Assembly (NCBI GenBank): GCA_963730185.1
Contig: CAVSQW010000003.1
Coordinates: 20,755 to 84,754 of the forward strand
Length of the DNA stretch: 64,000 bases
Reading direction: 5' to 3'
DNA from: an uncultured Gemmatimonadales bacterium
Lineage (GTDB): Bacteria; Gemmatimonadota; Gemmatimonadetes; Gemmatimonadales; GWC2-71-9
In this document: piece after piece, positions 6,567-16,001 of the stretch
Numbering within the stretch: position 1 is the stretch's first letter
Layout of the letters: the number at the start of each line of letters is the position of its first letter
Notes under the pieces: model-generated
What the model saw: the letters and a program-made list of their open reading frames with translations, nothing else
The model's database searches: none
Told to the model about the DNA's origin: nothing
Translations under genes and position numbers: made by a program

Positions 6567-6599
6567 CGGTCGGCGTACTCCAACCCCGAGGAGTTGCCT

Positions 6600-7211
6600 G
6601 TGCAGCGTCGAGCTCTTGCCCTTGTCGTTTTCGCCGTCCTTCTCGTCCTTCTCGCCGTTCCCGTCTCCGCCCAGACCACCACGACCCCCGTTTTCCTCGC
6701 CCCGTACCGGGCGTTCGACCGGACCGAGTTCGGGGTGTCGCTGTCGGATCCTGGCGCCGGCTACGCCCTCGAGGGGTTCTACCGGTTCGCGAGCGGCAGC
6801 CGCTACGATTTCGGGTTCAGGGGCGGGTTCCAGAACTACCGCTCGGGCGACACCCGCTTCCTTGCCGGGGTGGACTTCCGGACCCGAGTGATCGACCATT
6901 CGGAGCAGTTTCCGCTGGACGGGGCCTTCACCGCCGGGATCGGCGGGTCCTTCGGCAATGGCCGGAGCGTCGGGACGATCCCGATCGGCGTCTCCTTCGG
7001 CCGGCGGATCCAGCTGGAGGATTCGAACGTCGAGTTCGTCCCGTATTTCCACCCGGTGCTGGGCCCCGAGTTCGGTGACGTGCAGGGCCGGTTGGTGTTC
7101 AGTCTCGGTCTCGGCACCGACATCCGGTTCAGCCGTCGCTTCGAGCTCCGGGTGAGTGGGGCGCTCGGCGACTATTCCGGCATCGGCATCAGCGCCGCCT
7201 TCGAGCGCTGA
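6600..7211 (+). CDS. Putative outer-membrane beta-barrel protein
   Basis: GAGGAG RBS 6588-6593 before GTG 6600; signal peptide (..VPVSA|Q), alternating amphipathic Gly/aromatic strands, C-terminal ..ISAAFER. Confidence 0.65.
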   Translation: MQRRALALVVFAVLLVLLAVPVSAQTTTTPVFLAPYRAFDRTEFGVSLSDPGAGYALEGFYRFASGSRYDFGFRGGFQNYRSGDTRFLAGVDFRTRVIDHSEQFPLDGAFTAGIGGSFGNGRSVGTIPIGVSFGRRIQLEDSNVEFVPYFHPVLGPEFGDVQGRLVFSLGLGTDIRFSRRFELRVSGALGDYSGIGISAAFER

Positions 7212-7246
7212 GCCGGCTGCCCCTATCACTTCGAGGAGCGCGACCC

Positions 7247-7966
7247 ATGCGACGGCTCCGAGCGCTCTTTGCGGCAGGCCTGATGGCGGGCGTCTCGACG
7301 CCCGCCATGGGCCAGGCCATCGGGATGCCGGTGACCGTGCCCGGGGTCCCGAGCGGGGTCACGTTCCACGGGGGTGCCGGGCTCTCGAACGCCGATGCCG
7401 GGAAGGGCCAGGCGGCCCAGGTGGGCGTTTCCCTGGGCGGTCGCCGACTCGCCGTCACGGGCTACGTAGGCCGCCGGTTCGGGCAGGAGAGCGGACCGGA
7501 CTTCACCAGCGCCGGCGTCTCCCTCACCAACAAGATCTTCGGCGGCCCGCTGGTCCCCTTCGCCGTGAACCTGCAGGTCGGGGCCGCGTACGGCGCACCT
7601 TCGGCTTCGGGCGTCATCTACGAGGTCGGCTGGGCGGGTGGCGACGTGCCGGCGGCCGACTTCTCGGTCGCGGCGGGTGGCTATGGCTCCGGGACCAAGG
7701 TGTGGCACGTCCCGGTGGCGGTGGGGGTCTCCTGGGTCTTTCCGCAGCCGGTGGTCGCGCTCAAGCCGTGGATCGCGCCCCGCCTCGATGTCGTCCGCGT
7801 GTCGGCGGGCGGGACCGGGACGACCGACGCCAACTTTGGCCTGTCGGGCGGCCTCTCCTTCGGGTTCCTGAACGGTCTCGGCATCGACCTGACCTACGAC
7901 CGCGTGTTCGCCGCCGGCGCCTCCCCGGCGATCCTGGGCCTCGGGCTGAGCTTCACGCTCAAGTGA
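7247..7966 (+). CDS. Putative outer-membrane beta-barrel protein
   Basis: GAGGAG RBS; signal peptide; beta-strand pattern; C-terminal LGLGLSFTLK; paralogous to the next gene. Confidence 0.65.
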   Translation: MRRLRALFAAGLMAGVSTPAMGQAIGMPVTVPGVPSGVTFHGGAGLSNADAGKGQAAQVGVSLGGRRLAVTGYVGRRFGQESGPDFTSAGVSLTNKIFGGPLVPFAVNLQVGAAYGAPSASGVIYEVGWAGGDVPAADFSVAAGGYGSGTKVWHVPVAVGVSWVFPQPVVALKPWIAPRLDVVRVSAGGTGTTDANFGLSGGLSFGFLNGLGIDLTYDRVFAAGASPAILGLGLSFTLK

Positions 7967-8634
7967 CGAACCGACTGCTCCGGGCGTCGCTCGCCCTCGT
8001 CCTGGGCGGGGTGGGAGCGGCCGGGGCGCTCCAGGCGCAGGCCACGGTGCTCCCGCTCCGAAACGCCGGCATCTCCACGGGCATCTCTCTCTCAGGGGAG
8101 TTGGGGTTCGCGCGTGTCAAGCATCCGACGCCCGCGCCGGACGACAAGGGATGGGCCGTCGGCGCCACGCTGGCCGCGGGGCTCGGTCCCTTCGGGGCGA
8201 CGGCCACGCTGGCTCGCTCGAGCATCGATCGTGGGGCCGGCGCCACCCATCAGACGACCGCGACCGGCACGGCCGCCCTCCGGGTGTTCGGAGGCCCGCT
8301 GGTGCCGCTCTCGATTCAGTGGCAGGCGGCCGGGTCGGTTCGGCTGGACGGGAGCGGGTCCAAGCCCTGGCGCGGGTCGGTCGGACTCGGGGCGGCGTTG
8401 ACCATCCCGATCCCGGTCCTTTCGATCAAGCCGTGGATCGCTCCCCGGGCCGAGTATTACGGGGGACAGTCGATCGCGGGGTCGTCCCTCAAGGCGGCGG
8501 TGAGCGCCGGCGTGGATCTGGGTTTCCTCAATGGGTTGGGCCTCCGGGTGGCGTATGATTCCCGGGTCGGGTGGGACCTGCCCGACGATGGGCCGGCGGG
8601 GGTGAGCGTCGGCGTGAGCTACGGTTTTCGATGA
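7963..8634 (+). CDS. Putative outer-membrane beta-barrel protein (paralog of 7247-7966)
   Basis: GTG overlapping upstream TGA; signal peptide; shares FGGPLVP, KPWIAPR and GFLNGLG motifs; ends VSYGFR. Confidence 0.65.
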   Translation: MTNRLLRASLALVLGGVGAAGALQAQATVLPLRNAGISTGISLSGELGFARVKHPTPAPDDKGWAVGATLAAGLGPFGATATLARSSIDRGAGATHQTTATGTAALRVFGGPLVPLSIQWQAAGSVRLDGSGSKPWRGSVGLGAALTIPIPVLSIKPWIAPRAEYYGGQSIAGSSLKAAVSAGVDLGFLNGLGLRVAYDSRVGWDLPDDGPAGVSVGVSYGFR

Positions 8635-8660
8635 CGGATGACGCACGGGGAGAGCATATC

Positions 8661-9020
8661 GTGAGACGGACCGGAACCGCGGTGCTGTTGGCCTCCGTCC
8701 TGCTGGGCGGCTGCGCACAAACCTTCGATGCGACCGCTCTCGGCGTCCCGGCGACGATGGCGTCGGAGGCGGGCGAGACGCCGGCGGGGCAGCCGTTCCA
8801 CGTCACCACCCACACGGTCCACGCGCTGTTCGGCCTGATCCCCCTCAAGAAGGCGTCGCTCAAGAAGGCGCTGGCCGCCGAGCTGGTGGGCGGTACGGCG
8901 GTGGCCCAGGTCAGGATCAAGACCAAGAGCCGGTTGCTCGATCTCCTGGTGACCGGGCTCACCCTGGGGCTCGTGGCTCCCAAGACGGTCATCTACGAAG
9001 GGATCATCGTCGGCCGTTAG
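8661..9020 (+). CDS. Bor/Iss-like small lipoprotein
   Basis: Lipobox LLGGC; ALFGLIP and LLVTGLTLGLVAPKTV resemble the Bor family; alternative ATG at 8631. Confidence 0.55.
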   Translation: MRRTGTAVLLASVLLGGCAQTFDATALGVPATMASEAGETPAGQPFHVTTHTVHALFGLIPLKKASLKKALAAELVGGTAVAQVRIKTKSRLLDLLVTGLTLGLVAPKTVIYEGIIVGR

Positions 9021-10309
9021 GCACCCATCAGGAGCCTCACCAGACCGGCATTCCGCGCCGCCGCTCCACGCCCTGCCTCCACCACGCTCCGCGCCGCCCG
9101 GCCAGCCTCGAGCCGCTCGGCGTCGTCGTTGAGCCATTCGCTCCACCGGACGGTCAGGTCGTCGACGGGGCCGAGCGCCGGCAGCGCGACGGCGCCGCCC
9201 GCCATCAACAGGAGCCCCGCCTCCCTGCTCGACTGCCAGCGCGGCCCCATGATGGTGGGCACCCCCGAGGCCGCGGGCTCGAGCACGGAGTGAAGGCCGG
9301 CCCGGCCGAACCCGCCTCCGACGTAGGCCAGCGTGGCCGCGCGGTAGAGGGTGGCCAGGACGCCCACCCGGTCCACGACCATGACCGGGGCCGGCTGGTC
9401 CGGGCTCTCGCTGAGGCGGATCGGGCGGGGAACCCCGAGGCTGGCGGCCCGCCGATCGAGCCCGGCGAGGTGGGACGGCGTGGGCTCGTGGGGCACGACG
9501 ATCAGGCGCGCCCCGGGGTGATCTCGCCGGACCTCCTGAAAGGCCCCCAGCAGGACCGCTTCGTCCCGCGGCCAGGTGGACCCCGCCACCAGAGTTGCCC
9601 CACCCGCGCCGAGCCGGAGCAACGGTTCGTCGGCCGGCCCGGCCCGGGCCCGGTCCAGGGCACTGTCGAAGCGGGGGTCGCCGGTGACCGTGATCCGGGC
9701 CGGGTCGGCGCCCAGCCGGGCCAGCCGCTCGGCGTCCTCGGCGGCGATGGCGCCGACCCGGTCGAGCGCAGCGTAGCCGGACCGGGTCAGGTCCCGGGCG
9801 GGCCAGCGGAGCCGGCCGCTCACCGGGCTCACCGTGCCGGCCACGAGCCCCACCTTCACCCCCGCGGCCCGGGCGGCGGTGGCGAAGCCGGGCCAGAGGT
9901 CGAGCTTGGTGAACACCAGCGCTCGGGGGGCCAGGGCTGCGAGCAGCGCCCGCGCGGCGCCGGGCGTGTCGTAGGGCAGGTAGTCGGCCGCGTCGGCCGG
10001 GATCCGTCGAGCCAGCGCTTCGGCCGACGGGCTGAAGAAGGTGTAGGCGATCTGCCAGTCGGGGTGCGCGGTCCGGAGAAGCCGGAGCACGGCGTCGGCC
10101 TGGAGCCCCTCGCCCACCGAGGGGGCATGGCACCAGAGCAGGGGGCGGCTCCGATCCCGATGAGCCGTGGCCCAGGCACCCCACCGGGCCGTCGCGCCGC
10201 GCCGAGCGAGGTCACCCCGGCGGAGCTTGGGAGCGAACGGCCGTCCGAGCGGGAGCAGGGCGGAGGCGAGGCCGGTCAGGGCGCGATAGAGGAGCGGCGT
10301 TTCGGGCAC
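9017..10309 (-). CDS. waaA: 3-deoxy-D-manno-octulosonic acid (Kdo) transferase
   Basis: WCHAPSVGEG, YTFFSPS, DYLPYD, VAGSTW, VPHEP, YVGGGF..GLHSVLEPAA. Confidence 0.92.
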   Translation of the reverse strand: MPETPLLYRALTGLASALLPLGRPFAPKLRRGDLARRGATARWGAWATAHRDRSRPLLWCHAPSVGEGLQADAVLRLLRTAHPDWQIAYTFFSPSAEALARRIPADAADYLPYDTPGAARALLAALAPRALVFTKLDLWPGFATAARAAGVKVGLVAGTVSPVSGRLRWPARDLTRSGYAALDRVGAIAAEDAERLARLGADPARITVTGDPRFDSALDRARAGPADEPLLRLGAGGATLVAGSTWPRDEAVLLGAFQEVRRDHPGARLIVVPHEPTPSHLAGLDRRAASLGVPRPIRLSESPDQPAPVMVVDRVGVLATLYRAATLAYVGGGFGRAGLHSVLEPAASGVPTIMGPRWQSSREAGLLLMAGGAVALPALGPVDDLTVRWSEWLNDDAERLEAGRAARSVVEAGRGAAARNAGLVRLLMGA

Positions 10310-10364
10310 GCCCGAATGTCGAAGGGAGCGGGGTCTCGGGCAAGCGGGGTGGGCTGGAGCGGGG

Positions 10365-10394
10365 TTGTTTTTTCGCCGCCGTCTTCCCTACTTT
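10365..10394 (+). promoter_or_regulatory. Putative sigma70 promoter for the small transcript at about 10400
   Basis: TTGTTT(10365-10370)-N18-TACTTT(10389-10394) in an AT-richer patch. Confidence 0.45.
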
Positions 10395-10400
10395 GGAACG

Positions 10401-10612
10401 CCCCTCAGGTGGTTCAGTCGAACCCTGCAAAAAGGAGGTGATCCATTGTCTAGTGTAAGTAGTCGTTCGAGCCTGGACTGGGCAAGCGATCGCCAGGTGA
10501 TCGCGTAAGTTTCCCCCGAGCGTGACGTAGCGCCGGGTCGCATTCCAGGCGTTTCGCTCCAGGCTCGAAGGACACCGGTCGCGCCGTCCGCCCTCGAGGT
10601 GGGCGGCGCGAC
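10401..10612 (+). ncRNA. Candidate structured small RNA with 15-nt complement to the 16S rRNA 3' end
   Basis: AAAGGAGGTGATCCA at 10431-10445; several hairpins, including a 15-bp stem with two G-U pairs at 10578-10612. Confidence 0.45.
10446..10508 (+). CDS. 20-aa small ORF MSSVSSRSSLDWASDRQVIA
   Basis: TTG start directly after the extended Shine-Dalgarno; TAA at 10506-10508 flanks a GCGATCGC/GTGATCGC hairpin. Confidence 0.5.
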   Translation: MSSVSSRSSLDWASDRQVIA

Positions 10613-10640
10613 GCACATCACCCTCCGGATGCGGGTCACG

Positions 10641-11951
10641 ATGAAGCGTCCCATGCTCAGGCGATTGGCGCTGTTTCTGATCCTTCCCCTGGCGGCGGCG
10701 GGACCAGACCCCTCGGCCAAGGTGGTGCTGGCGCTCGCCATCATTTACGCGGCGGCGCTGATCTTCGGCGAGCTGGCCGTGCGGCTCGGGCAGCCGGCGG
10801 TGTTGGGCGAGCTCGTGGCCGGCGTCGTCCTGGGCAACCTGCATCTGATCGGGATCGACTCGCTCAGCTTCATGGCGGACGAGCCCGGGATCGACCTCCT
10901 CGCCCGGCTCGGGGTGCTGCTTCTCCTCTTCGAGGTCGGGCTCGAATCGACGGTCCACCAGATGCTGACCGTGGGCCTCAAGGCGGTGGCCGTGGCGGTG
11001 ATCGGGGTGATCGCGCCGTTCGTGGTGGGCTGGGGGGTGGGCGCCTGGCTCCTGCCGACCGAGTCGTCGTACGTGCACGCCTTCCTCGGGGCGACGCTCT
11101 GCGCCACCAGCGTCGGGATCACCGCCCGGGTGCTCAAGGATCTGGGACGCTCTCAGACCCGAGAAGCCAGGATCATCCTGGGCGCGGCGGTCGTGGACGA
11201 CGTGCTGGGCATCGTGATCCTGGCGGTGGTGACGGCGGTGATCGCGGCGGCCGACACCGGGGCGAGCGTGAGCTACGGCGCGATGGGGCTGATCATGGCC
11301 AAGTCGGTCGGTTTCCTGGTGGGCGCGATCCTGGTGGGCGTGTGGCTCGCGCCCCGGATCATCCAATGGTCGGCGGGGCTCAAGGCGCATGCGGCCGGGT
11401 TGGCGGTGAGTCTGGCGTTCTGCTTCCTGACCGCGTATCTGGCCTATGCCATCGGCCTGGCCGCGATCATCGGGGCGTTTGCGGCCGGGCTGGTGCTCGA
11501 GTCGTCGCACTACCGGCCGTTCACGGCCCGGGGTGGGCAGCCGATCGAGGAGCTGCTCCACCCGCTGATCCAGATGCTGGTGCCGGTGTTCTTCGTGTTG
11601 ATGGGCATGCGGACCGATCTCCAGGCCTTCGCCGACGGCGGAGTGCTGCTCCTGGCCCTGGTGCTGAGCGTGGCGGCCATCGGGAGCAAGATGATCTGCG
11701 GCGTGGCGGCTGGCCGAGACACGAACCGGCTGGCGGTGGGGCTCGGGATGGTGCCGCGGGGCGAGGTGGGGCTGATCTTCGCCAACATCGGCCTCGGCCT
11801 GGTGCTCGCGGGACGGCCGCTGATCAGCGAGACCACCTACTCCGCGGTGGTGGTGATGGTCATTCTGACCACGATGGCCACGCCCCCGGCCCTCAAGTGG
11901 AGCTTCGGCCGGCGAGAGACGACGTTCCCGGCGGGAGGCCAGTCGGGATGA
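10641..11951 (+). CDS. Cation:proton antiporter (CPA2, NapA-like)
   Basis: GQPAVLGELVAG, LFEVGLE, ATSVGITARVL, ILGAAVVDD, GMVPRGEVGL; many TM helices; exact start uncertain. Confidence 0.92.
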   Translation: MKRPMLRRLALFLILPLAAAGPDPSAKVVLALAIIYAAALIFGELAVRLGQPAVLGELVAGVVLGNLHLIGIDSLSFMADEPGIDLLARLGVLLLLFEVGLESTVHQMLTVGLKAVAVAVIGVIAPFVVGWGVGAWLLPTESSYVHAFLGATLCATSVGITARVLKDLGRSQTREARIILGAAVVDDVLGIVILAVVTAVIAAADTGASVSYGAMGLIMAKSVGFLVGAILVGVWLAPRIIQWSAGLKAHAAGLAVSLAFCFLTAYLAYAIGLAAIIGAFAAGLVLESSHYRPFTARGGQPIEELLHPLIQMLVPVFFVLMGMRTDLQAFADGGVLLLALVLSVAAIGSKMICGVAAGRDTNRLAVGLGMVPRGEVGLIFANIGLGLVLAGRPLISETTYSAVVVMVILTTMATPPALKWSFGRRETTFPAGGQSG

Positions 11952-11983
11952 ATCCCTGGGCCGGCCGGCTCGTAGGATAGCCG

Positions 11984-12718
11984 ATGAACACCTCGTCCTA
12001 TTGGGCCCGCACCCGGGCGCCGCGCTACAGCCTGACCTTCGCGCTGCCGCTGCTGCTCCTCTACGAGGCGCTGGCCTTTCTCCTGAGTGGCGACGCCATG
12101 GCCGGAGTCCGGAATGGCGCCGACGTGCTGCTCAAGAGCGTCTTCACGACCTTCGGCGGCCGGCACGGGCTCACCGTATTCGGCGTGCTGCTGCTCGGAT
12201 TGGGAGCCTGGCTGGTGATCCGCGACCGTCGGCGAAGCGGGCCGATCGAGGCGCGGCTCTTCCTCGGCATGCTGGGCGAGTCGATCGGCTATGCCCTCGT
12301 TCTCGGCGGCGTGGCGAGCACTCTCACCTCGCTGGTCCTTGGCCGGCTCGGCTTCGCGCTCTCGGCCGGCGGGCTTCAACAGTTCGGGTTCCCAACCCAG
12401 ATCATGATCTCGCTGGGCGCGGGGATCTACGAGGAGCTGTTGTTCCGGGTGATCCTGGTGTCGGGACTGGCCTGGCTCGGCCGGTCGGTCTTCGGCTGGA
12501 AGGCTCTGCCCTCGGGCATCATGGCGACGGTGGTGGGCGCGCTGGTCTTCTCGGCGTTTCACTACGTTGGCCCGTTCGGCGACCCCTTCGCCCTCGACTC
12601 GTTCGTCTTCCGGGCGATCGCAGGCGTGCTGTTCAGCGCGCTCTATCTCTTGCGCGGGTTCGGCATCGCCGCCTGGAGCCATGCGCTGTACGATGTGTTC
12701 CTGGCAGTGGTGGGGTAG
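11984..12718 (+). CDS. CPBP (CAAX/Abi) family intramembrane metalloprotease
   Basis: GIYEELLFR, FSAFHY, AWSHALYD motifs; TM segments. Confidence 0.88.
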   Translation: MNTSSYWARTRAPRYSLTFALPLLLLYEALAFLLSGDAMAGVRNGADVLLKSVFTTFGGRHGLTVFGVLLLGLGAWLVIRDRRRSGPIEARLFLGMLGESIGYALVLGGVASTLTSLVLGRLGFALSAGGLQQFGFPTQIMISLGAGIYEELLFRVILVSGLAWLGRSVFGWKALPSGIMATVVGALVFSAFHYVGPFGDPFALDSFVFRAIAGVLFSALYLLRGFGIAAWSHALYDVFLAVVG

Positions 12719-12730
12719 GCGGGCCACCCA

Positions 12731-12760
12731 CTCCATCCCTCCCCATCCCTCCCCATCCCT
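12731..12760 (+). repeat. Decamer tandem repeat (CCCCATCCCT, about 3 units) right after the dnaE2 stop
   Basis: ctccatccct-ccccatccct-ccccatccct; same unit as the element at 13446-13570. Confidence 0.75.
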
Positions 12761-15700
12761 CACCTGAAATCCCTCGATCGGAACGAGAGCGCCGCTCGCG
12801 GCCGAATCGGCTTGAGCCGTTCCGCCAGGATCTGGATCACCGGCCCGTCGCGCTGGATCTTGCCCAGGACCAGCAGGAACGGGGCATGCCGGACGACCTC
12901 CCGGTAGGTCTGCTCCACCTCCCGCCGCACGATCACGTTCAGGAACCCGAACTCGTCCTCCATCAGGATGAACAGCACTCCGGCTGCGCTCTCCGGCCGT
13001 TGCCGGGTCACGACCAGTCCGCCCGCCAGCACCCGCTCGCCGTGGCGGGTGCCGGCCAGGTCGCGGCTGTCGAGCGACCCGAACCGGGTCAGCCGGGGCC
13101 GGAGATGCTCCATCGGGTGCCCGATCAGGCTCGACCCGGTGCTGAAGTAGTCGAGGAAGATCGACTCGGTCCGGCCCAGAGGGCGGGGGGAGTGTCGGGA
13201 GGGACGTGATGGGGCGAGGGGGAGGGTGTCGGCCACGTGGCGGAGGGCCTCCCAGGCGGCTTTCCGGCGGTCCGGCTCCCAGGCGCCGAACGCGCCGGCC
13301 CGCGCCAGCCCCAGCGCGTCGGGCTTGCCGAGCCGAGCCCGGAGGACCACGTCGGCGATGCTCTCGAAGAGGCTCTCTTTCCGGGCCCGGTCCAGGGTAG
13401 CGATGGCCTGGTCGCCGACGCCCCGGATGAAGCGCCAGCCCAGGCGGAGGGGTGGGGAGGGATGGGGGGAGATGGGGGGAGATGGGAGGGTGGGGGCATT
13501 TCCCCGGACCCCCTCCCTCCCCATCCCTCCCCCTCCCTCCCCATCCCCCCCCATCCCTCCCCCTCCCTCCACCCGGCATTCCGCCTCTCCCTCCAGCAGA
13601 CACGGCCCCGCCACCACCACGCCCGCGCGACGGGCATCGTGAATCAGGGTGGCGATCGGGTAGAACCCCATCGGCTGGGCGTTGAGCAGCCCCAGCAGGA
13701 ACTCGGTCGGATAGTGGCACTTGAGGTACGCCGTCGCATAGGCGATCAGCGCGAAGCTCCAGGCGTGCGACTCCGGGAAGCCGTAGTTGGCGAAGCTCAT
13801 CAGGTCTTCCTCGATCCGTTCGGCCACCGGTTCGTCGATCCCGTTCGCGATCAGCCGTTCCCGGAGCTGAGCCAGGGCCTCGAGCAGCTTGGTCCGCTTC
13901 CGCTGGTGTCCCATGGTCCGGCGGAGGAGATCGGCCTCGGCCGCGGAATAGCCGGCCAGCGCCATCGCGATGGCCATGGCCTGCTCCTGGAAGATCGGAA
14001 TGCCCTGGGTCCGCTGGAGGATCGGCTCCAGCGCCGGGTGCAGGTAGCTGACCGGCTCCTCGCCCCGGCGGCGCTTGGTGTAGGGATGGACGAACTTGGC
14101 CTGGATCGGTCCCGGCCGGATCAGGGCCACCTGCACCACCAGGTCGTAGAGGCGCTCCGGCTTGGTATGGAGGATCGAGGCGATCTGAGCTCGGCTCTCG
14201 ATCTGGAAGGTCCCGATGGTCTCGCCCCGGGAGATCATGGCGTAGGTGGCCGGGTCGTCGTCGGGCAGCTGGTACATCGAGAGCGTGGTGCCGGTCCGGG
14301 CCTCGATCGCGTCGAAGGCGCGGCGGATCAGCGCCAACCCGCCGAGGCCGAGAAAGTCGAACTTCGGAATCCCGACCGAATCGAGGTCGTCCTTGTCGAA
14401 CTGGACGATGGTCCGTCCCATCGAGGTGGACTCGATCGGGAGGTAGTCGCCTAGGGGGCGGAGGACAGCACGAACCCGCCGGGATGGGTGGAGCGGAGCC
14501 GGGGCAGGTCGTCGAAGGCGCGAATGGCCTGGAGCACGGTCCGGGCCCGCTCGTCGGTCAGATCGAAGCCTTGGGCCTGGGCCAGCCCGCCCTCCAACTG
14601 CTCGGCGCCATCCAGGCACCCGTAGCGGTGGAGCCGCTTCGAGAGCTTGAACGCCAGCTCGGCCGGATAGCCGAACGCCCGCATGGTGTCCTGGACCGCG
14701 GTGCAGGCGCTGTAGATCTGGGTGACCCCGGTGATCGCGGAATGTTCTCGCTGGTAGCGTCGGTAGACGTAATTCAGGACCTCCTCGCGCCGGTCGTGCT
14801 CGAAGTCCACGTCGATGTCCGGCGCCTCGGTCAGCCCGTCGACCCGGGCCTCCGAAAGGAAGCGCTCGAAGAGGAGCCCGTGTTTGACCGGGTCGACCGC
14901 GGTAATGCCGAGACAGTAGGCCACGGCCGAGTTGGCGGCGCTGCCCCGGCCCTGGGCCAGGATGCTCCGTTCCCGCGCGAACCGGACGGCGTCCCACATC
15001 ACCAGGAAGAAGCCCGAGAACCCCAATCGGGCGATGACCTTGAGCTCGTGCTCGAGTTGAGCCGTCTCCCGCGGGCCCGGGGTCCCCCAGCGCTCTCGGG
15101 CGCCGGCGAACGTCAGCTCTCGGATCCAGGAGTCGTCGTCGTGGCCCTCCGGACATTTGAACGTGGGCAAGGGGGGACGCACCCAGCGGAGCTCGAAGCC
15201 ACATTCCGCCGCGATCCGATCGCTCTCGCCAAGCCCAGCTTCGGCGCCCCGCCAGCGGCGGGCCAGCTGTTCGGGTGGGAGCAGGCGCCAGTCGCCGTTG
15301 GGGTGGAGCAGTCCCTTTCGGGTGGCGGACGCGATGTCGGTACCGTGACGAAGCGCGGTGAGCACCTCGTGCACCAGCCGCGAATCGTCATCGAGGTAGC
15401 GGGGATCCTGGGCCACCACCCAGGGCACGCCGTGCCGCCGGGCCAGCTCGATCAGCGCGCCGGCGAGCGCCTCCTCGTCGCGGCCCGTGTGGTGGAGCTG
15501 TACCTCCACGGCCAGCCGGTCGGAGAACGTCTCGCGGTAGCGGGCCAGGAGCTGAGCGGCGTCGGCTCGACGGCCCTGCCGGACCAGGGTGGCCAGCGCG
15601 CCCGACGCGGGGCCGGTGAGGAGGTGGACACCCTCACTGCGTTCCAGCAGATCGTCCCAGGTGAGCCCGGGCCGGCCCCGGGTGGCGGTCCGGCGGGTCC

Positions 15701-16001
15701 AGCGCCGGAGCCGGCCGACTCGTGAGCGGGTGACGAGGCCGGCCACGTGACGGAAGCCCGCGTCCGACCGGGCCAGGAGCGCCAGCGGCCGGCCGTCGAC
15801 CACCAGCTCCGCGCCGGCGATCGGCCGGATGCCCTGCTCCCGGCAGGCGAGCCCAAAGCGAACCACCCCGCCGAGATCGGCGTGATCGGTGAGGCCGATC
15901 GCCGAGTAGCCGAGCCCGGCGGCCCGGCGGGCCAGGGCCTCGGGGGCGACGGCGCCGTCGCCGAACGAATAGGCGGAATGGCCACGAAGCTCGGTGGGCA
16001 T
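12760..16001 (-). CDS. dnaE2: Error-prone DNA polymerase DnaE2/ImuC (single frameshift at about 14455 in this sequence)
   Basis: PHP start ELRGHSAYSFGDG, GRGSAANSAVAY, PDIDVDFEH, STHPGGFVL; continues in a second frame with LGDYLPIE, FQIESRAQ, YGFPESHA and C-terminal RSRDFR; one C missing in the GCCCCCTAGG run. Confidence 0.92.
13446..13570. repeat. Palindrome of decamer tandem repeats inserted in-frame in dnaE2
   Basis: Left arm GATGGGGGGA/GGGGAGG-type units, right arm CCATCCCTCC-type units around a short spacer; translates as GGGGMGGDGEG...PTLPSPPISPHPSPP. Confidence 0.8.

What the first reader, a model, noticed from the sequence alone, without database searches (positions are those of the whole stretch)
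10365..10508. Stand-alone small transcript with a perfect 15-nt complement to the 16S rRNA 3' end and a 20-aa ORF
Seen: AAAGGAGGTGATCCA (10431-10445) is the exact reverse complement of the conserved 16S tail TGGATCACCTCCTTT, far longer than a normal 4-8 nt Shine-Dalgarno. It abuts TTG and the ORF MSSVSSRSSLDWASDRQVIA*, whose last codons form a hairpin (GCGATCGC-CAG-GTGATCGC). The first codons are AT-rich and atypical for this genome. Upstream are a plausible sigma70 promoter and a GGTTC/GAACC hairpin. Inference: such extended pairing should clamp 30S subunits, so this may be a ribosome-sequestering or hibernation RNA, a dual-function sRNA/micropeptide, or a translation-sensing leader. It is missing from the ORF track and is my best candidate for an undescribed system.
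Basis: partly seen in the sequence, partly recalled or inferred. Interest (0 to 1): 0.85.

Follow-up and report, generated by a model that had tools for sequence, protein, structure and literature searches.

The report
Ribosome-docking mini-mRNA, rre-like
This is a real, conserved, folded small RNA gene whose start can pair with almost the whole mRNA-docking tail of the small ribosomal subunit and carries a tiny reading frame whose peptide seems not to matter; a similar kind of RNA is already described in another bacterial group, but its job is still unknown.

Summary
The 15-nt match at 10431-10445 is the only match of 14 nt or more to the 16S tail in the genome besides the 16S gene. It is single-copy and found in 21 of 21 other genomes of the genus, and in seven families of the class, with clean losses. 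In relatives, a sigma70-type promoter, 14-15-bp pairing to 16S, a mostly TTG start, an 11-25-codon frame and a covarying helix starting at +17 are conserved. The peptide is not under amino-acid selection (pN/pS 1.0-1.5). It is not undescribed as a kind: it has the same ribosome-binding layout as the rre small mRNAs of Alphaproteobacteria (Hahn et al., PMC5711450). Rfam CC2171 shares that layout, but this RNA scores below its cut-off. Homology is not shown; the fold is its own. Best reading: an RNA that docks 30S subunits at initiation and is unfolded and turned over by rare translation. Hibernation is less supported. This scan noted an RNA of this kind before in another Gemmatimonadota genome and in other phyla.

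The parts
10365..10394 (+). sigma70-type promoter: -35 TTGTTT 10365-10370, -10 TACTTT 10389-10394; predicted start about 10400
   Evidence: sequence; motif in 75 of 104 members vs 2 of 104 control windows; not picked up by the strict scan
10400..10403 (+). 5' GCCC, candidate partner (pseudoknot) of the GGGC bulge
   Evidence: 77 members have both motifs, 21 neither, 6 GCCC only, 1 bulge only (a contig cut short); background 20 of 104; no covariation in flanking positions
10421..10426 (+). conserved (C/A)ACC tract that can mask part of the SD
   Evidence: CACC 49 and AACC 16 of 88 members; SD core mostly paired in model folds; inference
10431..10445 (+). extended Shine-Dalgarno, 15-nt perfect complement of the 16S 3' tail, ending at the start codon
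   Evidence: duplex -27.0 kcal/mol vs -8.6 to -11.3 for four neighbouring starts
10446..10508 (+). 20-codon ORF, TTG start, TAA stop (MSSVSSRSSLDWASDRQVIA)
   Evidence: all 105 members close a frame at 11-25 codons; stops TAG 44, TGA 37, TAA 24; no Pfam or NCBIfam hit; pN/pS 1.0-1.5
10462..10477 (+). P1 5' strand, starts at +17 from the start codon
   Evidence: 7 of 8 counted P1 pairs show changes on both sides
10478..10485 (+). 8-nt junction bulge CTGGGCAA with invariant GGGC
   Evidence: invariant columns in A2; unpaired on the 3' side in comparative structure
10486..10504 (+).
   Evidence: P2 96% paired in 57 sequences; local hairpin 22 of 22 in genus, 0 of 83 outside
10509..10547 (+). variable inner domain after the stop codon
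   Evidence: length and sequence vary widely among members
10548..10573 (+). P2 3' strand (10548-10557) stacked on P1 3' strand (10558-10573)
10578..10612 (+). GC-rich 3' hairpin, terminator-like but without a U tract here
   Evidence: 5 of 6 base pairs of the stem with changes on both sides
9017..10309 (-). kdtA/waaA (Kdo transferase), divergent upstream neighbour
   Evidence: PF04413; beside the RNA in 21 of 22 loci L170-L191
10599..11951 (+). CPA2-type cation/H+ antiporter (likely start 10641), downstream neighbour in part of the genus only
   Evidence: PF00999; in 11 of 22 loci L170-L191
11984..12718 (+). Rce1-like CAAX protease gene, the usual downstream neighbour of the RNA in the family
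   Evidence: PF02517

Best explanation
An rre-type ribosome-docking mini-mRNA of about 215 nt, in which the RNA and the act of initiation matter and the peptide does not. Shown by comparison: own promoter, a 14-15-bp complement to the free 16S tail ending at a weak TTG start, about 16 unpaired bases, then a two-helix domain (P1/P2) and a 3' hairpin. Inferred: the two exposed purines at the 5' edge of the partly masked SD seed binding to an idle 30S subunit. The long duplex and poor start codon hold it at the initiation stage, with P1 resting just outside the mRNA entry (a +15 to +17 edge for initiation complexes is recalled, not from a call). Occasional escape into elongation unwinds P1/P2, ends at codon 21 and sends the RNA to decay, as for rreB. 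Its level and fold would then track the supply of free, initiation-ready 30S subunits. What reads that signal is not shown.
For: The SD-start register is identical to rreB's (primer rows in the paper's Table S2). rreB co-sediments with 30S, is weakly translated, and is stabilised from 10 to 37 min when its start codon is removed (PMC5711450). All 88 members tested form at least 14 bp with this genome's 16S tail. At -14/-13 and -5 the only changes are A-to-G, which keep pairing as G.U. Structure: 92.5% of cells paired, 13 of 19 pairs changed on both sides, 0 of 500 shuffles as high, slid controls 30-46% (sequence-only alignment). Frame kept: first stop at 11-25 codons in 88 of 88, against 46 of 88 within 26 codons in frame +1; codon 21 is TGA 21, TAG 20, TAA 3. 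Peptide free: pN/pS 1.03 on a spanning tree, 1.1-1.5 pairwise; the ASDR codons almost never change at third positions. Pairing to the 3' region rises at +17 in Gemmatimonadota and at +8 in the mostly alphaproteobacterial set. Three short contigs (152, 185, 160 nt) of one RNA library lie on the element, the best at 10417-10554 with 4 differences (weak: one study, contigs, DNA not excluded).
Against: No ribosome binding, translation, strand or ends were measured for this RNA. Most of the SD letters were forced by my search patterns; only the 22 loci from the DNA search and the model hits were not. In distant members the last 2-3 spacer bases do not pair, the spacer is 1 nt shorter in 4, and codon 2 can be Ala, Leu or Pro, so the clamp is not always extreme. 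The RNA is dispensable: 10 of 27 loci from carrier-negative genomes have kdtA and the protease gene less than 200 nt apart with no element. The downstream use of the signal is unknown. Overexpressed rreB had no growth effect.
Confidence: 0.55

Rival explanations
1. Storage or shield RNA: in starved cells it accumulates and covers the 16S 3' tail of idle 30S subunits, blocking translation and 3'-5' exonucleases.
For: An SD oligonucleotide protects 16S in 30S from RNase R in vitro (PMC10901742, passages). The duplex covers nearly the whole tail. A folded body and 3' hairpin would make it stable.
Against: Ribosomes far outnumber rreB, and 20-fold overproduction had no effect (PMC5711450). HPF is present in 27 of 30 carriers and 25 of 30 non-carriers, so it does not replace HPF. 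RNase R: 0 of 60 genomes over the cut-off; a catalytic-domain hit in 1 of 30 carriers and 4 of 30 non-carriers, and not found in this 82%-complete genome. A pure shield would not need a kept frame and stop.
Confidence: 0.17
2. Guide or checkpoint for 16S 3'-end maturation: it pairs with the tail of new 30S subunits and is released only when they can initiate.
For: Pairing runs to within a few bases of the tail end and is kept by G.U changes. Single copy, constitutive-type promoter. Inference only.
Against: Not linked to rRNA or biogenesis genes in the loci seen. Lost from many genera. The 5' limit of pairing varies between 14 and 19 bp.
Confidence: 0.1
3. Dual-function RNA or micropeptide gene: the 20-aa peptide is the product, kept scarce by the odd ribosome-binding site.
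For: Frame and stop position are conserved. MS start and an ASDR motif recur. RreB and RreR are described as conserved within their clades.
Against: pN/pS 1.0-1.5; at codons 12-16 pS 0.002 against pN 0.065. A 1-nt deletion rewrites the C-terminus in L015 and L016. 11- and 14-codon versions have different sequences. RreB and RreR peptides were unstructured.
Confidence: 0.08
4. Cis-acting leader or attenuator of the downstream antiporter (or protease) gene.
For: The 3' hairpin lacks a U tract here, the antiporter starts within about 30 nt, and the genus has two alternative pairings for 10486-10494.
Against: The downstream gene varies: antiporter in 11 of 22 loci L170-L191, the protease gene or unrelated genes elsewhere. 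P1/P2 do not overlap the 3' hairpin, so there is no antiterminator. Many relatives show a U run after the hairpin.
Confidence: 0.08
5. Chance match or an inverted scrap of an rRNA gene.
For: The 15-mer is identical to the antisense strand of the 16S end.
Against: Expected 0.0055 per genome. The match stops at the start codon and no other rRNA sequence flanks it. It is conserved with covarying structure in 105 loci.
Confidence: 0.01

Closest known systems
rre small mRNAs: rreB (Bradyrhizobiaceae), rreR (Rhodobacterales) and unnamed analogues; Hahn et al., RNA Biol 14:1353, PMC5711450
   Same: Extended SD in the same register right up to a non-AUG start followed by TCT. Stand-alone small transcript, short ORF, partly masked SD. 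A long helix pairs the ORF with the 3' region in front of a terminal hairpin.
   Different: Other phylum (the paper reports Alphaproteobacteria only). TTG rather than GTG, so 15 rather than 16-17 perfect pairs. Closing helix at +17, not +8. Own P1/bulge/P2 fold. No peptide likeness. My model scores alphaproteobacterial rre RNAs at 18-39 bits, overlapping two non-member controls at 20-21 bits, so common descent is not shown.
Rfam RF01867 CC2171 (Caulobacter sRNA)
   Same: Consensus begins with the same SD, start and UCU. The six MSHC-type loci tested pass its cut-off (88-120 bits), so CC2171 is the Caulobacter/Methylobacterium branch of the rre layout. Expression in Methylorubrum was shown by Northern blot (10.1101/2022.01.24.477521, passages).
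   Different: This RNA scores 25.9 bits against a cut-off of 75; three other Gemmatimonadota members score 21-28. The interior does not align.
Protein hibernation factors (HPF/RaiA) and SD-oligonucleotide protection of 30S from RNase R (PMC10901742)
   Same: Occupying the anti-SD region can protect or silence 30S subunits.
   Different: Those are proteins or synthetic oligos. HPF co-occurs with this RNA, and RNase R is mostly not found in these genomes.

Membership tests
rre small mRNAs (Hahn et al.) | at least 16 nt perfect complement to the 16S 3' end (the paper's search criterion) | tested here: not met
   15 nt perfect here; 14-16 bp with G.U in most TTG members, 18-19 in GTG members
rre small mRNAs (Hahn et al.) | complement runs up to a start codon at 7 nt from GGAGG, usually non-AUG | tested here: met
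   TTG at 10446; same register as the rreB primers; TTG 96, GTG 9 of 105
rre small mRNAs (Hahn et al.) | short ORF (14-18 codons in the paper) | tested here: met
   20 codons; 11-25 in 105 members; 114 of 120 cross-phylum hits have 14-27
rre small mRNAs (Hahn et al.) | stand-alone transcript with own promoter and terminator | tested here: inconclusive
   promoter motif conserved; 3' hairpin without U tract; RNA contigs are only a hint
rre small mRNAs (Hahn et al.) | SD partly sequestered in a conserved structure | tested here: inconclusive
   mean unpaired probability 0.13-0.38 over GGAGGUG and about 0.6 at the two 5' purines in 102 members; model folds only, no covariation test possible on invariant bases
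rre small mRNAs (Hahn et al.) | peptide conserved within the clade | tested here: not met
   pN/pS 1.0-1.5
rre small mRNAs (Hahn et al.) | 30S co-sedimentation, weak translation, start-codon-dependent decay | not testable with these tools
   needs bench work
rre small mRNAs (Hahn et al.) | sequence or structure homology to rreB/rreR beyond the SD-start motif | tested here: not met
   cross-scores overlap those of non-member controls
Rfam RF01867 CC2171 | score at or above the gathering cut-off of 75 bits | tested here: not met
   25.9 bits, E 0.0013; 0 gathering hits in the window

The most novel reading that the evidence does not exclude
These RNAs are a cross-phylum class of RNA clamps for the 30S subunit. 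In the Gemmatimonadota form the 5'-end GCCC pairs with the GGGC bulge beyond the start region, so the RNA closes a ring around the docked subunit: SD helix at the exit side, P1 at the entry side. It would hold an initiation-stage complex until translation springs it, an RNA counterpart of hibernation factors or a sensor of free 30S. In favour: every intact member with the bulge has the 5' GCCC (77 of 77), and bulge-less members have it near background (6 of 27 vs 20 of 104). Against: the four pairs never vary, flanking bases do not covary (p 0.88), and the losses come from few lineages.
Probability: 0.12. Interest if true: 0.85.

Novelty: new variant of a known kind. Interest (0 to 1): 0.5.

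Why it matters
The rre RNAs were described once, for Alphaproteobacteria, and left without a function. My literature searches listed no follow-up on rre and no report of such an RNA in Gemmatimonadota. A second, structurally different family in another phylum keeps the 16S pairing, the weak start, the short frame and a closing helix, but not the peptide. That points to the ribosome contact as the selected function. It also names specific things to mutate (seed purines, start, stop, P1 position, the GCCC/GGGC contact). If these RNAs hold or monitor idle 30S subunits, bacteria have an RNA-based control of ribosome availability that annotation pipelines miss.

Tried and rejected
Rfam at gathering score and ARAGORN on the whole window: 0 hits each; not tmRNA, 6S, SRP or a riboswitch by those libraries. 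The strict promoter/terminator scan found nothing. Peptide against NCBIfam and Pfam: nothing. A kissing-dimer idea for the GCGATCGC palindrome was dropped: 15 of 55 members read GCGGTCGC and the strand pairs in P2. Extension of the pseudoknot beyond 4 bp: no covariation. Replacement of HPF: no anti-correlation. RNase R shield: the enzyme was mostly not found (a long query can miss weak matches, and the genomes are incomplete). The first codon script had an offset error and returned nothing (redone). Lack of close contigs on the flanking genes in run X1 is not used as evidence. Rows dropped before counts: 10 of 48 fetched places and 4 of 21 places were chance matches (long frames, repeats or no fold); L049 duplicates L014. 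codon statistics use the 55 of 88 members in exact register; A2 holds 57 of the 64 bulge-type members then held, A3 46 chosen sequences. The cross-phylum scan stopped at 120 rows, so it gives no prevalence.

Full report
Observation. The 15-mer AAAGGAGGTGATCCA lies at 10431-10445, directly before TTG and a 20-codon frame ending at 10508. In the whole genome (5.27 Mb, 82% complete) the only other copy is the 16S gene end. No other site matches the last 20 nt of the 16S gene over 14 nt or more, and 0.0055 copies are expected by a Markov model. The predicted duplex with this genome's own 16S tail is -27.0 kcal/mol, against -8.6 to -11.3 for four neighbouring gene starts. The element sits between divergent kdtA (9017-10309) and a CPA2 antiporter, followed by an Rce1-like protease gene. 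The record titles of related loci name Gemmatimonadota, so the host is placed there by inference.

Extent. Bases 10400-10640 fold far better than shuffles (z -4.8, 0 of 200). The ORF strand 10462-10477 pairs with 10558-10573, and a GC hairpin follows at 10578-10612. The strict scan found no promoter or terminator. A TTG...YAnnnT promoter motif lies upstream of 75 of 104 members against 2 of 104 control windows, which puts the start near 10400. The hairpin has no U tract here, so some read-through is possible.

Distribution. A DNA search found the element in 21 of 21 other genomes of the genus, and all 22 loci L170-L191 carry it. A strict pattern hit 24 of 301 phylum genomes. A looser one hit 76 of 301 at 77 places; of the 76 places examined, 66 were members and 10 chance matches. 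Allowing 2 mismatches in 80 pattern-negative genomes gave 21 places, 17 of them members. A covariance model found one copy in the own genome and hits in 10 of 63 further negatives. That brings the range to families f1, f2, f4, f5, f6, f7 and f8 of the class; none was found in the 6 genomes of other classes searched with it. Loss is real: in 10 of 27 loci from negative genomes kdtA and the protease gene lie under 200 nt apart with no element. The antiporter is adjacent in 11 of 22 loci L170-L191 and in none of the 23 other loci, so this is not its leader.

What is conserved. In 105 members the frame closes at 11-25 codons, with stops TAG 44, TGA 37, TAA 24 and starts TTG 96, GTG 9. All 88 members of the first set form at least 14 bp with the 16S tail. 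Positions -14 and -13 are always A or G, and the change at -5 is A to G, so pairing survives as G.U. Caveat: my patterns forced most SD letters, and TC at codon 2, in that set. Members found otherwise show unpaired bases at -3 to -1, a spacer 1 nt shorter in four cases, one ATG, and Ala, Leu or Pro at codon 2. On a sequence-only alignment of 57 members the 19 pairs counted are 92.5% paired, 13 with changes on both sides, above all 500 shuffles and all slid controls (shuffles ignore relatedness). The fold is P1, an 8-nt bulge with invariant GGGC, P2 stacked on P1, a variable inner domain, and a 3' hairpin. Shorter versions exist: 11 codons in genus g4 and 14 in family f2, both without the bulge. 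The 5' GCCC and the bulge go together: 77 both, 21 neither, 6 GCCC only, 1 bulge only on a cut contig, background 20 of 104. Flanking bases do not covary, so the pseudoknot is a hypothesis.

Peptide or RNA. Among 55 members in exact register pN/pS is 1.1-1.5 pairwise and 1.03 on a spanning tree. At codons 12-16, which give the apparent WASDR motif, synonymous change is almost nil (0.002) while non-synonymous change occurs (0.065), following G.U pairing in P2. Two members carry a 1-nt deletion that rewrites the C-terminus. The frame itself is kept: first stop at 11-25 codons in 88 of 88, against 46 of 88 within 26 codons in frame +1, with TGA, TAG and TAA exchanged at codon 21. Selection therefore acts on pairing, fold, start and stop, not on the amino acids.

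Other phyla. The motif SD-start-TC scanned over GTDB genomes stopped at 120 rows; 114 have frames of 14-27 codons, one of them cut by a contig end. Most are Alphaproteobacteria, 5 are Gemmatimonadota, and 4 with 25-26 codons are labelled as gammaproteobacterial bins (labels unchecked). In the 108 mostly alphaproteobacterial RNAs folded, pairing of the ORF with the region past the stop rises at +8; in the 87 Gemmatimonadota RNAs it rises at +17.

Expression. One metatranscriptome run held part of the stretch (share 0.17). Laid on 8500-12800, its three best listed pieces are contigs of 152, 185 and 160 nt on the element, the first covering 10417-10554 with 4 differences. Contigs show neither strand nor ends, and DNA can be in such a library; this is a hint from one study.

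Known systems. An earlier scan note named the rre genes. I read parts 1-4 of 6 of Hahn et al. (PMC5711450; abstract to discussion) and searched its one held supplementary file. rreB is a 165-nt RNA with a 17-nt complement ending in a GTG start and a 14-codon frame. It co-sediments with 30S and is weakly translated; its half-life rises from 10 to 37 min without the start codon, and overproduction does not affect growth. Analogues were reported in four alphaproteobacterial orders only. Its primers show the same SD-start-TCT register as this RNA. Rfam CC2171 matches the window at 25.9 bits (cut-off 75). Of 20 loci scanned, six MSHC-type RNAs pass the cut-off, rreB- and rreR-type RNAs score 28-43, and Gemmatimonadota 21-28. 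In the other direction my model gives alphaproteobacterial RNAs 18-39 bits and two non-member controls 20-21. So the layout is shared and descent is unproven. I saw passages of 10.1101/2022.01.24.477521, PMC11701678 and PMC10901742; all other papers only as search listings. Searches listed no follow-up on rre and no report from Gemmatimonadota; the library lacks most subscription papers.

Mechanism. Most likely (0.55) the RNA docks an idle 30S subunit through the long duplex and holds it at initiation. The weak start and a helix at +17 fit a complex that forms without unfolding the RNA (the +15 to +17 edge is recalled knowledge). Rare elongation would unwind the domain and trigger decay, as shown for rreB. 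Anatomy and selection pattern are shown; binding, gating and any downstream effect are inferred. The hibernation or shield reading (0.17) has in-vitro precedent. Against it, HPF is present in 27 of 30 carriers and 25 of 30 non-carriers, an RNase R catalytic-domain hit was found in 1 of 30 carriers, and rreB is far rarer than ribosomes. Maturation checkpoint (0.10), functional peptide (0.08), cis leader (0.08) and chance (0.01) follow.

Verdict. Real and well conserved; a new structural variant, in another phylum, of a published but unexplained kind. This scan has noted such RNAs before in another Gemmatimonadota genome and in other groups; those notes were leads, and only the first was tested here. 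Interest 0.5.

Noticed in passing
L026, L029, L030, L032, L033, L037, L039, L041, L043, L044, L047 (viral contigs): 11 of 24 viral hits are one family of 65-codon phage genes (MSTTVFDVL...) whose TTG start is preceded by the same 14-nt 16S complement: an ordinary-length gene with an extreme SD.
   Followed up: no
L038:301-480 (viral contig): Extended SD, GTG, an 11-codon basic frame and a multi-hairpin region on a viral contig; may be a phage-borne rre-like RNA. L025, L027, L035, L040, L042 and L046 look like host rreB/CC2171 RNAs on contigs called viral.
   Followed up: partly
L061, L107, L162, L167: rre-layout RNAs with ATG start and 25-26 codons in bins labelled Gammaproteobacteria (Pseudohongiella, Woeseiaceae, unnamed); L107, L162 and L167 fold with the closing helix and terminator. 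Labels may be binning errors, as is likely for L066 and L168.
   Followed up: partly
L098, L119 (Azospirillum): Extended SD in front of 59-60-codon ATG frames that look like secreted proteins rather than 14-27-codon frames.
   Followed up: no
60 Gemmatimonadales genomes: RNase R/RNase II catalytic domain found in only 5 of 60 genomes and none over the RNase R cut-off; the order may largely lack this exonuclease family.
   Followed up: partly
L242 (G061): Short direct repeats of about 34 nt with unique spacers next to the SD-like match; looks like a CRISPR-type array.
   Followed up: no
L121 (Streptomyces): Extended SD and GTG before a 51-codon frame with a CC motif that resembles a lanthipeptide precursor (resemblance recalled, not tested).
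   Followed up: no
window 13125-13685 and 12720-12770: Purine/pyrimidine-rich low-complexity stretches (repeated GGGGATGGG-like units) inside and beside the large dnaE2-like ORFs 12760-16001; possibly a short repeat element (gene name recalled from the translation, not tested).
   Followed up: no
window 6594-8634: Three consecutive ORFs with signal-peptide-like starts and beta-barrel-like C-termini after atpD/atpC; one tested had no NCBIfam hit.
   Followed up: no
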